Positions 3,709 to 55,607 of a DNA stretch of 64,000 nt are shown here, piece after piece. The stretch is from Octopus vulgaris (Eukaryota): the NCBI GenBank assembly GCA_951406725.2, contig OX597815.1, forward strand, positions 166,966,001-167,030,000, given 5' to 3'. Positions within the stretch are counted from its first letter, which is position 1, and every line of letters starts with the position of its first letter. The position numbers and the translations under genes were made by a program. The notes beneath the pieces were generated by a model. It had not been told where the DNA came from. It was given only the letters and a program-made list of their open reading frames with translations, and made no database searches.

Positions 3709-4206
3709 CAGCAGCAGCAACAGCAATATGATCACAGTTTAAAGCAATCAGGAAATAGAAATGTATACGGAATATGAAGTAAATATTTGCAAAAAACCCA
3801 AACTATCTGGTACATAACACTTCTAGTCTCATTACATTTATTTGGGACCCAGAATCATCATTGATAACCATTCTGAACAATCAAAGCTCTATACAACTGA
3901 AGAGCGTTTTGTTAGGTTTCATTGTGCAGCTAAATCCGCCCAAATAATATTATGGGACAGACGATGGATCCTTAGTAACGCAATTAATTAAGACAAAGGC
4001 ACTTGTGTGGTAGATAATAAGATTGGACTAAATATACAAGAGAGCCTAGTTAAGCGCTTTTACATCCTGTGTGTAATAGAGTTTAACTTGTTCTTCAATA
4101 ATCCAGTTTCAATTTTGTATGTGTGTTTGTATGTATGTATGCATGTATGGACACAGGCATAGCTGAGTAGCTGTGTGTTTAAGAAGTTCACTACGCAAAC
4201 ATGAGG

Positions 4207-5482
4207 TTACAAAGCCTTGGGAACAGGTTCGAACTCTGACGTCATATATCTTGACTTCAGTAAAGCGTTCGACAGGATAGACCATAATATCCTACTCTCA
4301 AAATTGGCAAATGTTGGAATCCGTGGAAAACTTCTACACTGGATTAAGTATTTCCTGGCGAATAGAACACAACATGTTGTAGTTGATGGGGTCCACTCAA
4401 GCCCAGCAAAAGTCACCAGCGGTGTCCCCCAGGGGACTGTCTTGGGCCCGCTATTCTTTATAATTTACATAAACGACCTTTCCAGTGTCGTACATTACTG
4501 CAAAGTGAAAATATTTGCTGATGACACTAAGCTCCAGCAAATCGTCAATGAAGAATCAGACCGAACTCAACTCCAGTCTGATCTATTTGCTGTGAGTCAA
4601 TGGGCAGACAGAAACAAAATGCAACTGAACGAGGGAAAATTTGAGCTGATGCATTTTGGAAGAAATTCCTTACTAAAACAGCCATACTCTCTTCCTTCAG
4701 GGGAACCGCTCACAGCCTCTAACAATATCAGAGACCTGGGTGTAATTGTTGATGACGATCTCAGTTGGAGTGCACACATCAACAATAAGGTCGATATTGT
4801 TCGGAGGATGAGTTCCTGGATCTTAAGAACTTTCCGGTCCAGAGAACAAGGTGTCATCATACCACTTTTCTCCTCCTTTGTACGGCCACACCTCGAATAC
4901 TACTGCCCACTGTGGTCTCCCCTTACAAGACAAAACATCTCGAGGATTGAATCACTCCAGAGGGCACTCACTAAACGAATTGAAGGCATAGCTGCTCTCG
5001 ATTATTGGGACCGCCTTAAAGCCTTGAAACTCTACTCTCTCCAGCATCGTCGTGAGCGGTTCATCATTTGTACGATGTGGAGAATATACCGCCAACTTTG
5101 CCCAAACGACCTGAACATTAGCTTCAAGGTCCATCCAAGACTGGGACCACGTGCCATACGTCCCCTGCCCAATTCAAGATCACGGCATACATGTACACTG
5201 CAACATAATTTCTTTTCCTCAACAGGCCCTGCCCTATTTAACATTGTCCCGAAAGAGATCAAAGAGGAAAAGGATCCCTTCAACTTTAAACGGTGTCTGG
5301 ATAGATTTCTTCAAGGAATACCAGATAAGCCACCCATAATTGGATACAACTCACCCAACAAAAACTCATTACTTGAATGGACCATGAACAAAACTTGACT
5401 TAAACAGGATTTAGGTAATCCTATTAGGTGGTGCTATTAGGTTAGACATGGCCTGGACCAATCTTTGGTCGAAACATATCTA

Positions 5483-5487
<5 letters not shown>
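4207..5487 (+). mobile_element. 5'-truncated CR1/L2-group LINE, uninterrupted RT C-terminal ORF (4217-5398) plus 3'UTR
   Basis: RT motifs YLDFSKAFD, SGVPQGTVLGP, IFADD, RDLGV, RPHLEY..PLWSP, LKLYSL; ends in (TA)n. Confidence 0.95.
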
Positions 5488-5526
<39 letters not shown>

Positions 5527-5529
<3 letters not shown>

Positions 5530-6552
5530 GCCCTCTCAGATATGCCCGCAAATGCTCGAATAGCCACTCTGGCCAGCTACGCAGACGATACGAAAGTCTC
5601 GCAGAAAATACAGAACCCCAGCGATGTTGCACACCTGCAGCAGGAGTTGGACTCAATCTACAGATGGGCTGAGGATAATAATATGCAGTTTAATGCTGAA
5701 AAATTCCAGGCCCTGCGCTACCAGCATCCAAAACTGAATATTAAACTTACAGGATACACCGGTCCACAGGGAATTTCAATCCCAGAGCCTAAGTCTGTGA
5801 GCGACCTGGGTATCGACATGAGTGATGATACCTCTTTCCAAGTGCACATTGCCAGGATGGCGACAAAGTGCAGACGACTGGCTGGGTGGATCCTAAGAAC
5901 ATTCAGAACCAGAGATAAGGAAACCATGATGGTCCTCCAACGGACATTCGTCCTCAGCCGCCTGGATTACTGCTCACAGCTATGGTCACCCACCAGTGTA
6001 AAATTAACAGCGGACCTTGAAGCAATGCAGAGAAGATTCACAAAGAAGATCGTCTCTTTGCAACAGCTCAGCTACTGGGAAAGGTGGAAACAGCTAAGAC
6101 TCTACTCCCTGAAGAGAAGACGGGAGAGGTATACAGTAATATATGTCTGGAAGATCCTGGAAGGAATTGTGCCAAATTTTTGCATTGTAAGCTACACCAA
6201 TGCTAGAACGTGACGACACTGTATAGTGCCAAAGATCCCAGCAATGCCATCACGCTTCAGGACCAACTTCTGCAACAGCCTGGGTTTCAAGGGCCCACAG
6301 CTTTTTAATATTCTCCCAAAGAGTCTGAGGAACTTGCACAAAGTAGATGTAGCGGTTTTTAAATCAAAGCTGGACATCTTCCTGTCGAGAGTCCCAGATG
6401 AACGTACCTCACGGCCAGAGGTGCAAATGAGGGTAGCTATATCAAACTCCATTCTTCACCAAGAGCTACATATTAGAGGAGGCTCTTAGTAATAACAGTG
6501 TAGCACAAAACGGCGGTGCATCAGCATGGCCGCAACTCTGAGATGAAACAAA
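5527..6552 (+). mobile_element. Second 5'-truncated CR1/L2-group LINE (different family), RT C-terminus with one premature stop
   Basis: YADD, MQFNAEK, SDLGI, SRLDYCSQLWSP, LRLYSLKRRRER; TGA at 6211-6213, then GPQLFNILP..FKSKLD; flanked by (TA)n on both sides. Confidence 0.95.
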
Positions 6553-34190: not shown

Positions 34191-35833
34191 TTCCAACGGG
34201 ATGGTAAAGACACTTTTGAACTAACTGGTCATTCAGTATCTTACTGATCTTAGTTGGACTGTCCGTGAGGGAGTCATCCTTTTGGAAGAGGGATCCTATC
34301 TTGCAGTGTACTGAGGCTATTTCTTTCGCGTAAGGAACGGCCTTTGGGTTTGACTTAATGTTTTTTATTACCCAGACTTCTTTGCTTTCTTTCTCACATA
34401 GGATTGTTGCAACCTTTTTTCTATCTTCATCAGTGTTGCTTTTAGTTGGGACCTTTCGCTACTTTTGGGATATTGGTTGAGTCGATTTGCAACCTTCGTC
34501 CGTCGTCTCATGAGGATTTTCATCTCTCTTGGAATTTTGTGCCTATTTGTTTTGCCCTTGTGCTCTGGGACATATCTCTGGCATATGGCTTGCACAACAG
34601 ACATGAAACATTCTAGTTTCATGTTAATGTCTGGTGTGGAGAAACATTTCAGCCAGTCCTCTCTGAAGATCTATTTTTGAATCGATTTCCAGTCTGCTTT
34701 GTGGAAGTTCAGATAGGAGAGATTTCGGGTGCTTCCTTTAGGCTGTATGTCTCTGGTTACTTTCGGCCCAAACATAGACAGCTATATTATGTTGTGATCC
34801 GAGACTAATGTCGGCGTCACTTTCACATCATGAATGATGTCCATATTGTTTGTGAAGCAGAGATCCAGAATATTTATTATTCGACCTAGTTGGTCTGAGT
34901 ACAGCTTGCTCCATGAATAGGGCATTGGTGACGTTGAGCAGGGACTCCACCTATGCTTGCTTGCAATGAGTCATTCCTGAGAGTATGAGACCTTCGTGCC
35001 ATTTGATGTTGGGGAAGTTGAAATCACCCATAAGAAATATGGTCACGTGGTGTTCCAGTTTCATAAGGATTTCTTTAATTCTTGTGAGGCAATCTTGAAA
35101 CTTGCCTATGTGGTTTGGAGCATCCGGTGGGCAATATGTATTGCATATGACTATATTATATTGTCCTATGTATACAATTAGAGTGTCACATACCGAATTT
35201 GAGCATGACAGTAAGACCTGGGGTGTGAGGTCATCATGGATGTAAACAGCAACTCCTTTCCCTTCTGTCTGTTCTTAGTATGGCATAGTTTGGCACGTGT
35301 ATAACTGCATTCTCTATATCAGAGCTGAGGTGAGTTTCCATGAGTGCAATGCATAGGGCTTCATTGCATGCAGTAAGATCTCTCAGGAAAGAAATTCTGC
35401 TTTTATTAGGATGCAACAGGCCTCCAATATTTAGTAAAAGTATTGGGGTGACGACTGTGCAGGCGTTGCGGGAGGCCATCCCGTGTCAGTTGACTGTGGT
35501 GGTTTTGTATAGTGGTGGGCAAGGTTCCTTCTTTGTGCTTGGTGTAGCCAGGTCAGCAGCTGCGCAATCTTTTGCGCCATGTACAAAAAGACACTTGCTC
35601 AGCTGCTGCATTGCGCATATGACGAGCAAACGTCTTTTGTAAATTTTTTCCTTTGATTCATCTGTTGTCTTTCCTCAGGGGAGTTTTTCTCCTTAAGGCT
35701 CCTGTGGTTTTGGCGAGCTGTTGGATGGGCAAACCGGCAGTTTTTGCCCTCTTCCCCATGCCATTTGCCTTGCAGATAAAATTTACAAGTTCATGAGTGG
35801 CTTCCAAATTTCATCTTTCCTGTAGGGTTTTGG
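34190..35833 (-). pseudogene. 5' portion of a CR1/L2-group LINE: CCCH-like ORF1 remnant plus APE endonuclease, decayed
   Basis: LLLNIGGL..CIALMETHL..VPNYAILRTDR (35234-35479); GDFNFP, LDLCFTN and SDHN motifs downstream; CKFYLQGKWHGEEGKNCRFAHP at 35722-35787. Confidence 0.85.
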
Positions 35834-46684: not shown

Positions 46685-46732
46685 GTCTCTGATGAAGGGA
46701 TATCCATAATATCCCAGAAACAGTTTTAAGAC
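46685..46732 (+). ncRNA. Type I hammerhead motif with damaged stem III
   Basis: GTCT-CTGATGA-A-GGGATAT-ccata-ATATCCC-A-GAAA-CAGTTT-TA-AGAC; stems I and II pair perfectly. Confidence 0.72.
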
Positions 46733-47318
46733 TATATCTATATCTCTTTCCTTATAAATGTCATGAAAACTCCTCACAGCCTGGGATTTGTTATCTCGTT
46801 TTGTCTAATACGTATTTATATATTTCAGGTTTGATCGAATATAAAGGTAATCAAAGAGTTCGCCATCGAGCTCATCCCATTGTTTTCTTTTAAAAGGTGC
46901 AGCGTATCTGGGACTTTAGAGTATAGTATTTCTACCTAGAAGAATAACCGCATTAAGGCTCCCTCGTGAGCTCATATTATCGTAGGAAAGATATATAATT
47001 CTAGGTTTCTTTTATCTTATGTTCAAGAAAAACAGGTTTTCATGATCAAGGGAAATATTAATAATAAAGGATATATATCCAACTTTTTTTTTAAGGGAAA
47101 TACATGTCAGAGGGAAAATGTCACATTTCGTTTAAATATCATAGATAATGATTAAGGATAGCTTCCAGTTCAGTCCTATAGTGTGGTACCTTGGGTAACT
47201 GTCTTCTACTTTATGAGTGAATTAGGTAGACGAGGGCTGTGTGGAAGCCTGGCATATATGTGTGTCTGTGTGAGTTTGTGTGCGTGAGAGACAGAGAGAG
47301 AGGGAGAGAGAGAGAGAA

Positions 47319-48093: not shown

Positions 48094-48938
48094 GCATGTG
48101 TATATGTAACCCAAGCTCAAAGCATTTTTAGTCAGCTGAAACTAACAGTAGAATCTTTAAAAATTTGGATACATTTTAATATAAATGATACTTTTGCCAA
48201 TAGTTTTTAACATTTTTACTCAGAACACACACCTCCTCTCCTACTTCCTGCAAAAGTAGATTCACTCCCTTATCGCTTCCGCTCTCGTAACTACATTGTA
48301 AAAACAATTATGATTTGAAAGAAATAAAAATACAGTTTGCGCAAAGCAACAAGAATAAATGAAATTACTTTCTCATTTTGCTACTTTCTTGTACATCTTT
48401 TACAGTCTTAAACTTATTTTACTATTTATTCTGACCTCATAAATGTTCAAAATTTATATCTCTGTTCTCTCTTTGTCTCGGTCTATCTATCTGTCTATCT
48501 GTCTGTCTCTCTCTCTTTCTTTCATATTTCAATGTTTCATAAGCTTCTCTAAGACTAAACTAGATACGTTAGATACAGAAAAAATAAAGGGACTAGATAA
48601 TTCAAGGATTACGTTATAATGTAATTCATTATATATCGTCCTCACTTATCAATCTCGCGAAACGATTTACTGTGCATGCATATGTGCGTGCTTGAGATAC
48701 ATACGGACTCTAAAATATACAAAATTACGCCTATGTCTACACACACACAAACACACACGCACACACACACGCACGCACCCTAATTATAATTTTACTCATA
48801 ATTATAAAACTATTGTTTAAGTTTGGCGATAAGAGCCCTTTTAACATGCCGAAACTACGTGGTAAAGTTATCAATTATGATTTAATTAATTAATTTTACC
48901 CTTTATTATTATTGATATATATTTATATATAATACGAA

Positions 48939-52398: not shown

Positions 52399-53364
52399 CA
52401 TTTCCGCTCTACCGGTCATTCTTTACAACACCTGTCTGTGTTCGGATTTTCCTCACACAGGGGCCATCCGAACTCCCGTCTTCGACATGAGCTAGGATTA
52501 ATCTTCTCTCTTCGCCCCTTTGTACCACATGGGCCCAACTCTCCTCCTCTCTTCTAACCACGTCCTCTCTCCTCTCTTACTCTCACACCTACTTCCTCCT
52601 TTCACTACCACCACCTCTCCTCTCTTCTCTTGCTCTGACATCTACTTCCTCTTTTCGCACCTACCCGCCTTCTCCCTTCCACACTCTCCCTTCATCATCA
52701 TCCCTTCCACCCTCTCCTTTCATCGTCACTCCCTTCCACCATCTCCCTTATTCGTCACCCCTCCATCGTTACCCCACCCCTATACATTCCAACCCTACCA
52801 CCCCTATACATCCCACCTCCAACCCATCTCACACATTCCACTCCCACTTACCCCACCTCTTCCATACGCTTGCTTCTCCCACTCTCCCACCACAACACCA
52901 CCACACCACACCATACCACATACCACCGCACACCACCATACCACACAACACCACATCACACTACCCCGCACTCACTAGCACTGACCACTTCCCAACACCC
53001 ACGCCATCATCCACACACCTACACATGCGCACACGTCAAGGTCACCAGTCCCTATCAATACGCACATGCACATATACACGCACGCACACCTTCGTTTTGG
53101 GATTACCAGTACTTTATTATCTCCCCTTCTTCCTAGTTCTCCTGTCTGACCACCTTTGTCCGGCATTTGCCATGACTGATCGCTAGCTACTAAATCTATT
53201 TTTTAATTTTTCTCTCTGTTTATTTCTGTGTTCCTTTCTGTTGAAGAGCGTAGTCTCGAAACGTAAAAGACTCTCACTTCCCGAGCGTTAAACTAATACC
53301 TCTGTTTGATGTTTACGCACCCGTCTACGTCTTTTGTTTTGTCTATTTTTTTGTAAATGCCAAC

Positions 53365-53365
<1 letters not shown>
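52399..53365 (+). mobile_element. 5'-truncated Penelope-like retroelement (GIY-YIG C-terminus, pyrimidine-rich UTR, family A terminal repeat)
   Basis: 52399-52557 translates HFRSTGHSLQHLSVFGFSSHRGHPNSRLRHELGLIFSLRPFVPHGPNSPPLF*, matching the PLE GIY-YIG end pattern HF..H...R..E..I..L...P.GLN; HHR-like motif at 53234-53269; ends in (TA)n. Confidence 0.8.
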
Positions 53366-54283: not shown

Positions 54284-54286
54284 ATA

Positions 54287-54322
<36 letters not shown>

Positions 54323-54343
54323 TGTATGTATGTATGTATGTAT

Positions 54344-54395
<52 letters not shown>

Positions 54396-54579
54396 ATTAG
54401 GGCTTAGTAAAATAAATTACTTTGCCACATACTGAACTTAGTAGAAATAGCAGCCAAAAAAAAAAATTTTCTTAGCATTTCTACAACTTAAAGAAAATTT
54501 CTCTCAGATAATGTTTACTCTAGACAGCCCACGAAGGTTTGGAGGTAAATACAGAAAAATATCACAAGTACATAGATCG

Positions 54580-54642
54580 TTTGAGTACGTCAACGTTTCA
54601 AGATTAGCCAAATAAAATCAGCATTTCTATCGTCAGCTCAAA
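54580..54642 (-). ncRNA. Type I hammerhead ribozyme (left-arm copy)
   Basis: Reverse complement of 55228-55290. Confidence 0.82.
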
Positions 54643-55227
54643 ATTTCTTAATTTGGATTTGGAAACACTAAAAGAAGGAACTTTACCTATCAGCGAAGTT
54701 ATCGCTTCAGATGAACCACTCCGACTAACAGTGTCAACAAATTCAAAATGCGCAAAACGTTGACGTACTCAAACGATCTATGTACTTGTGATATTTTTCT
54801 GTATTTACCCACCTTCGTGGTCTGTCTAGCAAACATTATATTTTCTGCGAGAAATTTTCGAGGCAGTATGACCGAGAGAAATGAATTATAATATCAACAA
54901 TTGAGGGTAAAATTAATTAATTAATCAATTTCGCCTTAAATGGTCCTTTTACATACTGAACACTTGGTGAAATTGATTAATTAATTAATTTTACCCTCAA
55001 TTGTTGATATTATAATTCATTTCTCTCGGTCATACTGCCTCGGTTCTCGCGGTTAAAATATAATGTTTGCTAGATAGACCACGTGGGTGGAAGCGGATTG
55101 AAGAAATTTACGCCTGCGCATTTTGAATTTGTTGACACTGTTAGTCGGAGTGGTTCATCTGAAGCGATAACTTCGCTGATAGGTAAAGTTCCTTCTTTTT
55201 AGTGTTTCCAAATCCAAATTAAGAAAT

Positions 55228-55290
55228 TTTGAGCTGACGATAGAAATGCTGATTTTATTTGGCTAATCTTGAAACGTTGACGTACTCAAA
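55228..55290 (+). ncRNA. Type I hammerhead ribozyme (apparently intact)
   Basis: TTTGAG-CTGACGA-T-AGA...TCT-T-GAAA-CGTTGACG-TA-CTCAAA; 6-bp stem I; stem III ACGT-tg-ACGT; GUA triplet. Confidence 0.85.
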
Positions 55291-55568
55291 CGATCTATGT
55301 ACTTGTGATATTTTTCTGTATTTACCTCCAAACCTTCGTGGGCTGTCTAGAGTAAACATTATCTGAGAGAAATTTTCTTTAAGTTTTAGAAATGCTAAGA
55401 AAATTTTTTTTTGGCTGCTATTTCTACTAAGTTCAGTATGTGGCAAAGTAATTTATTTTACTAAGCCCTAATTATATAATGTAAAATTTTGAATTCGCCT
55501 TAAATGGTCCTTTTATATACTGAACACTTGGTGAAATTGATTAATTAATTAATTTTACCCTCAATTGT

Positions 55569-55607
<39 letters not shown>

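What the first reader, a model, noticed from the sequence alone, without database searches (positions are those of the whole stretch)
54391..55574. 1.2-kb nested palindrome with outward-facing hammerheads on both strands
Seen: ~364-bp nearly identical arms each carry an intact HHR. There is an inner 74-bp inverted repeat, a third partial HHR 3' half starting at 54755, and an ~82-bp terminal direct repeat. Inference: a transcript from either strand would contain one sense ribozyme plus its antisense, forming a long hairpin. Coleoids are known for extensive ADAR editing, so this is a candidate editing or siRNA substrate, and the mosaic suggests multiple template switches during one recent insertion.
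Basis: partly seen in the sequence, partly recalled or inferred. Interest (0 to 1): 0.75.

Follow-up and report, generated by a model that had tools for sequence, protein, structure and literature searches.

The report
Two-armed hammerhead retrozyme insertion, Penelope-style
This palindrome is one of hundreds of copies of a small non-coding repeat that carries a predicted self-cutting RNA motif, and its back-to-back layout is the usual footprint likely left when Penelope-type jumping-gene enzymes paste such RNA into TA repeats, so it is most likely not a purpose-built editing or silencing hairpin.

Summary
The anatomy is real: 364-bp arms (361 of 365 columns identical), a hammerhead (HHR) motif on each strand, a 76-bp inner inverted repeat and an 81-bp direct repeat. 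The locus is not special. It is one insertion of a 564-bp non-coding HHR repeat (578 exact subfamily motif hits; 9,022 for the wider group) in (TA)n. In a position-ordered sample, 34 of 58 loci are two-armed. Their outer ends fall on two fixed sites about 90 nt apart, usually one of each (22 of 26 assignable, p=2.7e-4). This fits the known inverted copy plus tail of Penelope-like elements (PLEs) and their two reverse-transcription starts. The HHR covaries across families and is predicted to work as a dimer. It lacks the usual G10.1-C11.1 pair and is predicted to be buried in the full hairpin. No A>G excess was found in dispersed copies; transcription is unshown. Peculiar to this locus: three strand switches (2 of 58 loci) and a unique 50-bp mosaic, either a real join or a polishing artefact. 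No autonomous partner was found. This scan already reported the same pattern for similar repeats on other DNA.

The parts
54285..54390 (.). Left target microsatellite, (TATG)n then (TA)n
54391..54754 (-). Left arm: antisense copy of unit positions 554 to 191 (unit position u1 = window 54930); its outer end is start site A
   Evidence: site A recurs at u545-566 in other loci
54580..54642 (-). Type I hammerhead motif, predicted cut after 54586
54755..54809 (+). 55-bp sense copy of u343-397, starting inside the HHR GAAA (G12 missing); junction 1 has no microhomology
   Evidence: (D10)
54810..54859 (.). Mosaic alternating about 9 times (read by eye) between sense u398-448 and antisense u165-112, the two strands of a stem in the predicted RNA; unique in the genome
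54860..54935 (-). Inner inverted arm, antisense u112 to u37; joined to the right arm through a 6-bp overlap with 1 mismatch (junction 3)
54930..55572 (+). Right arm: one 564-bp monomer plus about 80 bp of the next; ends at start site B
   Evidence: longest ATG ORF 34 aa, GC 33%
55228..55290 (+). Type I hammerhead motif with self-complementary stem III and U-U at position 10.1-11.1; predicted cut after 55284
55484..55572 (+). About 90-nt 'tail' between start sites A and B, missing from the left arm; part of a ~165-nt 3' module shared by several sister families
55571..55604 (.). Right target microsatellite (TA)n

Best explanation
This is one recent copy of a multi-copy, non-coding 564-bp repeat with a predicted dimer-type hammerhead (retrozyme-like), and its palindrome was likely made at insertion, when a Penelope-like reverse transcriptase copied the RNA from both cut ends of a (TA)n site and the two cDNAs were joined head to head. 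Steps: (1) Shown: tandem monomers, fixed 3' ends, 5' truncation, (TA)n flanks, no ORF. (2) Predicted: HHR dimers cut tandem transcripts into monomers, which may circularise into a rod-like RNA. (3) Inferred: a PLE protein acting in trans cuts both strands in (TA)n and primes one strand at site A (u~551) and the other at site B (u643), giving two arms that differ by a ~90-nt tail. (4) Inferred for this locus: the cDNA from A ran u554 to u191, jumped onto an antisense template to copy u343-~448, returned to the RNA at about u165-112 through the monomer's own self-similar stem, ran to u37, and annealed to the cDNA from B. (5) Predicted: read-through RNA of either strand makes the antisense arm first and buries the ribozyme, so any editing or siRNA would be a by-product.
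For: Family: 228 matches from 40 scored of 1,340 candidates; 51 exact HHRs; 578 subfamily and 9,022 wider-group motif hits, each with 0 for the reversed control. Layout: in all 58 loci defined by the first 100 listed hits, 34 are two-armed, 23 one-armed and 1 other. All 25 opposite-strand motif sets in that list are head-to-head and none tail-to-tail (hand count). Of the 26 two-armed loci with both ends assignable, 22 are A+B, 3 B+B and 1 A+A (p=2.7e-4 against 0.5); 8 more had one end at neither site. A best-hit-biased set gave 26 of 27 (28 two-armed of 62 loci). 60 of those 62 end in TA. Literature: partial tandems, inverted 5'-truncated copy, tail at one end and (TA)n targets (PMC8557442); both strands cut and extended, two internal starts that define the tail, predicted dimer (PMC11167929). 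HHR: across 35 distinct variants the distal stem II (not used to pick them) is 95.7% paired against 66.7% in shuffles (maximum 81.4%), and stem III is self-complementary in 30 of 35. The dimer fold is -27.0 kcal/mol, close to the two-copy MFE of -27.2, against -18.4 for two monomers. A circular monomer folds at z=-4.8 (40 shuffles).
Against: No autonomous element shares the 3' module or the monomer. Hits in GIY-YIG loci (L068, L087, L132, L169) and next to RT fragments (L209) were separate neighbouring insertions, on the other strand or beyond (TA)n runs. In 20 loci of a third PLE family only the copy already known in L183 matched, and none of 50 Hydra-like loci matched. The tail (~90 nt) is longer than the published 30-40 bp, and the monomer is longer than the usual 150-450 bp. 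In vitro, the PLE tested showed no strand difference in start site, so the pairing of A with B is not explained by that work. 4 of 26 loci break the rule. The HHR lacks G10.1-C11.1, and Rfam misses it. The 35 HHR variants are related, so the shuffle control overstates significance. No cleavage, circle or transcript is shown.
Confidence: 0.85

Rival explanations
1. The locus is a selected host hairpin that serves as an ADAR or siRNA substrate, with self-trimming ends.
For: A 364-bp near-perfect duplex is predicted for either strand. Long duplexes from repeats are typical ADAR substrates (established knowledge; only search listings seen).
Against: The same layout is found in 34 of 58 family loci. 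The HHR is predicted to be buried in the hairpin. None of 35 window ORFs matched a host gene in Pfam; the only hits were transposon domains (short exons would be missed). Copies show no A>G excess.
Confidence: 0.05
2. The insertion is real, but the 50-bp mosaic (54810-54859) is a consensus or polishing artefact: reads from other copies anchored on each side vote column by column across the self-similar stem.
For: About 9 alternations in 55 bp is many for a polymerase. The two parent sequences are abundant, and contigs from other copies leave the locus exactly at 54809/54810 and 54859 with the two normal continuations. The mosaic is unique in the genome.
Against: Annealing of two ~70%-alike single strands with patchy repair, or repeated switching, gives the same pattern. 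The rest of the element matches other copies at 99-100%.
Confidence: 0.4
3. The whole palindrome is an assembly or fold-back read artefact.
For: Inverted PLE structures are known to trouble assemblies (PMC8557442). No raw reads of this locus were examined.
Against: The arms differ at 4 columns. The left arm stops at the family's site A, which also ends 10 of 23 one-armed copies. The flanks differ, and junction positions differ from locus to locus.
Confidence: 0.03
4. The inverted arm came from one cDNA folding back on itself (second-strand synthesis), not from priming at both DNA ends.
For: The inner inverted repeat (54860-55041) with a 6-bp near-match at its apex looks like a fold-back, and segment 54755-54809 needs an antisense template.
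Against: Fold-back alone does not explain why outer ends sit at site A, which is used as an ordinary 3' end in one-armed copies. It also does not explain inverted arms longer than one monomer, or longer than the direct arm (L003, L030, L096, L239).
Confidence: 0.1

Closest known systems
Metazoan non-LTR retrozymes (PMC7229834, passages; bioRxiv 10.64898/2026.07.22.740005, part 1 of 5)
   Same: Non-coding tandem repeat with one type I HHR per unit, low GC, predicted rod-like circle, proposed PLE origin.
   Different: 564-bp unit (usual 150-450). HHR has a conserved 3x3 internal loop in stem II and no G10.1-C11.1 pair. Dispersed, often two-armed insertions in (TA)n. Circles and cleavage not shown.
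Insertions of endonuclease-positive Penelope-like elements (Penelope/Poseidon, Neptune, Naiad, Hydra; PMC8557442, passages and supplement hits)
   Same: Partial tandems, 5' truncation, inverted 5' copy, tail at one end only, (TA)n target, HHR near the 3' end.
   Different: No RT or GIY-YIG ORF; tail ~90 nt rather than 30-40; no sequence link to any autonomous family examined.
PAc Poseidon in vitro (PMC11167929, parts 1-2 of 4)
   Same: Two internal start sites that bound the tail; AT-rich target; both strands cut and extended.
   Different: There the two strands showed no difference in start site; here the genomic copies mostly pair one A end with one B end.
Opposite-strand HHR pairs of truncated PLEs in Schistosoma (PMC4209133, section 5 and passages)
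   Same: Two HHRs 100-700 bp apart on opposite strands; short palindromic helix III that needs a dimer.
   Different: Here stem I is 6 bp and the carrier is a tandem non-coding unit.

Membership tests
Non-LTR retrozyme | Type I HHR in each unit | tested here: met
   Motif, covariation and dimer fold; computational only
Non-LTR retrozyme | At least two consecutive tandem units with complete HHR | tested here: met
   Met by the family (three exact HHRs about 563 bp apart at C2:154.69 Mb and at C10:103.90 Mb); this locus alone has 1.14 tandem units
Non-LTR retrozyme | No protein coding; low GC | tested here: met
   Longest ATG ORF 34 aa; GC 33%
Non-LTR retrozyme | Usual unit length 150-450 bp (descriptive range, not a strict rule) | tested here: not met
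   564 bp; sister families 560-594 bp
Non-LTR retrozyme | Self-cleavage and circular RNA | not testable with these tools
   Needs a bench assay and RNA data
Canonical hammerhead | Core CUGANGA / GAAA / NUH with three stems | tested here: met
Canonical hammerhead | G10.1-C11.1 pair closing stem II | tested here: not met
   U-U here; the first position is A-A, C-A, A-U, A-C or U-U across 35 variants; a register shift could give G-C in some sister families but not in this one
Canonical hammerhead | Match to an Rfam hammerhead model | tested here: not met
Autonomous EN+ PLE | RT plus GIY-YIG ORF | tested here: not met
   No ORF; not filed as an autonomous PLE
PLE-mobilised non-autonomous element | Partial tandem, 5' truncation, inverted 5' copy, one-sided tail, (TA)n target | tested here: met
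PLE-mobilised non-autonomous element | 3' end shared with an autonomous PLE | tested here: inconclusive
   None found in the GIY-YIG, third-family and Hydra-like loci examined; only top-scoring or first-listed loci were fetched
PLE-mobilised non-autonomous element | Target-site duplication | tested here: inconclusive
   Cannot be read inside (TA)n flanks

The most novel reading that the evidence does not exclude
A dimeric Penelope-type enzyme primes both ends of a cut (TA)n site on a circular hammerhead RNA at two dedicated start sites, one per strand, fixed by a conserved ~165-nt 3' module that thousands of unrelated-body retrozyme copies share. This locus would be a frozen intermediate showing the enzyme leaving the RNA, copying cDNA, and re-entering through the RNA's own rod stem, with base-by-base mosaic resolution of the join. 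The hammerhead would be an active variant without the G10.1-C11.1 pair.
Probability: 0.3. Interest if true: 0.55.

Novelty: new member of a known kind. Interest (0 to 1): 0.3.

Why it matters
How PLEs make their inverted copies and one-sided tails is still open (PMC8557442; PMC11167929). The one-A, one-B pairing gives a sharp prediction for an in vitro assay: one start site per strand, coordinated. The short non-coding unit is a convenient template for that assay. It also means that the many head-to-head HHR palindromes in this genome need no host-function explanation. The single locus adds little beyond its unusually complex join.

Tried and rejected
Rfam: no HHR hit. Sequencing runs: no RNA holder listed. 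Laid contigs were multi-copy repeat pieces and did not bridge this locus's junctions; this says nothing about presence or expression. Autonomous partner searches led nowhere: GIY-YIG loci, the first 30 listed plus 36 further stretches; a third PLE family, 20 of 150 listed loci; 30 sister-HHR loci; Hydra-like loci, 50 stretches from 274 hits; and three short family motifs sought in the PMC8557442 supplement, with no relevant hit, though the file was cut when stored. The similarity in L087 first looked like a partner's pLTR and was rejected: a (TA)n run separates it from the PLE's own 3' end. Editing footprint in copies: none. The flanking 83%-alike SINE-like pieces (D5) were rejected as a target-site duplication: they are a very common repeat. 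Inversion junctions at the self-similar stem are not general (by eye). Literature searches for this family or the pairing rule found no description; the library lacks most subscription papers and Repbase, and preprint supplements were not seen.

Full report
Observation. Unit coordinates u1-u643 stand for window 54930-55572. The left arm 54391-54754 is the reverse complement of about 55120-55483, with 361 of 365 columns identical. An HHR motif lies at 55228-55290 (+) and 54642-54580 (-), with predicted cuts after 55284 and 54586. The inner inverted repeat is 75 of 76. 54755-54809 is an exact copy of 55272-55326 but lacks G12. The 81-bp direct repeat has a spacing of 564. Both sides are (TA)n-type microsatellite. 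Rfam found no hammerhead.

It is a dispersed family. A search of the own genome gave 228 matches from 40 scored of 1,340 candidates. The 54-nt HHR occurs exactly 51 times, a subfamily motif 578 times, and a looser 3' motif 9,022 times; reversed controls gave 0 each. Loci consist of tandem 564-bp monomers, cut short at the 5' side and ending at fixed places against (TA)n. Sister families of 560-594 bp have different bodies but share a ~165-nt 3' module and a related HHR. The monomer has no ORF over 34 aa and is 33% GC. As a circle it folds rod-like, at -139.9 against -109.5 +/- 6.3 kcal/mol for 40 shuffles. The genome is 2.8 Gb in 227 contigs.

The palindrome is the family's normal insertion form. 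In 62 loci chosen partly by best match (biased towards two-armed copies; two pairs look like duplicates), 28 were two-armed. 26 of the 27 assignable had one outer end at site A (u545-566) and the other at site B (u>=625). To remove the bias I took all 58 loci defined by the first 100 listed hits (17 already held, 41 fetched): 34 two-armed, 23 one-armed (10 end at A, 13 at B), 1 other. Among the two-armed, 22 were A+B, 3 B+B and 1 A+A, and 8 had one end at neither site. 22 of 26 against the best case of 0.5 under independence gives p=2.7e-4. Three 'one-armed' loci show a very short B piece in the flank by eye (L262, L263, L265) and were left as one-armed. PMC8557442 (passages) describes partial tandems, an inverted 5'-truncated copy and a 30-40-bp tail at one end for PLEs. 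PMC11167929 (parts 1-2 of 4) shows a PLE protein that cuts and extends both strands and starts at two internal RNA sites bounding the tail. PMC4209133 (section 5) reports HHR pairs 100-700 bp apart on opposite strands. I infer priming from both DNA ends, one at each site, followed by head-to-head joining.

The ribozyme. 199 motif hits in overlapping loci gave 35 distinct variants with at least 4 stem I pairs (stem I was used to pick them, so it is no test). The distal stem II was 95.7% paired against 66.7% in shuffles (maximum 81.4% of 2,000), with several pair types per position. Stem III was self-complementary in 30 of 35. The variants are related, so this control is lenient. For the window HHR, the swapped-dimer fold (-27.0) nearly equals the two-copy MFE (-27.2) and beats two monomers (-18.4); the monomer active fold is -7.7. 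This fits the dimer-type HHRs of PLEs and retrozymes. Against activity: position 10.1-11.1 is U-U here (A-U in the more diverged copies), not the conserved G-C. Predicted stem I formation is 0.42 in the right arm with its tail, 0.009 in the bare 364-nt arm and 0.000 in the whole element. Because the HHRs face outward, the antisense arm is transcribed first on either strand.

What is peculiar to this locus. It has three strand switches; 32 of 58 loci have one, 1 has two and 2 have three. Read along the top strand it is antisense u554-191, sense u343-397, a mosaic, antisense u112-37, then sense u1-643. The parsimonious reading (inferred) is one cDNA from site A that left the RNA at u191, copied an antisense template, and came back about 25-80 nt further on. 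It could do so because sense u395-448 resembles antisense u165-112: in the predicted fold u408-433 pairs with u131-154. It then joined the site-B cDNA through a 6-bp overlap with one mismatch. The mosaic alternates about 9 times between its two parents (by eye) and occurs once in the genome. Patchy repair of a heteroduplex, repeated switching and a polishing artefact all fit; I could not separate them.

Editing and host function. Private substitutions in 133 copy segments show A>G 22 and T>C 22 (15.8 and 12.0 per 10,000; p=0.37) and no hyper-edited copy. This speaks only to edits fixed at re-insertion. Of 35 window ORFs scanned (of 44 listed), Pfam matched only reverse-transcriptase and endonuclease fragments. 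A hairpin RNA would be a good ADAR substrate if transcribed (established knowledge; only listings seen), but nothing here marks this copy as selected for that.

The partner was not found. The genome holds young intact PLE-type families: a 781-aa RT-GIY-YIG ORF, a second related family, a third abundant family and a Hydra-like family in 2.59-kb tandems. None of the loci examined shares the 3' module contiguously. PLE mobilisation therefore rests on the footprint, not on shared sequence.

Novelty. It works like a non-LTR retrozyme inserted by PLE machinery, and at family level it meets the computational criteria (PMC7229834 passages; bioRxiv 10.64898/2026.07.22.740005 part 1 of 5), apart from its larger unit and variant HHR; circles and cleavage are untested. 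Searches found no paper on this family or on the A+B pairing. I had derived the pairing before opening earlier scan notes, which report the same for similar repeats here and in other genomes; those notes are not independent evidence. Verdict: a new member of a known kind; interest 0.3.

Noticed in passing
window 48788-48904: Solo piece of the shared 3' module (roughly site A to site B) from a sister family, ending in TA.
   Followed up: partly
window 53200-53365: Resembles by eye the 3' end and minimal HHR of the third PLE family, ending in (TA)n.
   Followed up: no
window 46689-46750: Another HHR-like motif from the pattern scan.
   Followed up: no
window 4205-6210 (+); 34954-35274 (-): Reverse-transcriptase ORF pieces and an endonuclease fragment.
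   Followed up: no
L117-L126, L087, L146: Young PLE family with an intact 781-aa ORF in many copies. Its 3' HHR reads U3/A8 rather than C3/G8, as do some sister retrozyme families; this variant is described in PMC4209133.
   Followed up: partly
L278-L282, L326: Hydra-like family with a 674-aa frame (from the motif to the stop) in 2.59-kb tandem and head-to-head arrays.
   Followed up: partly
L143-L157: Sister family with 584-594-bp units, a very long stem II and arrays of up to about six units.
   Followed up: partly
L021/L024 and L091/L092: Near-identical insertions with like flanks 7 kb and 18 kb apart, probably local duplications.
   Followed up: no
L251: The other three-switch locus; it looks like two small palindromes back to back.
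   Followed up: no
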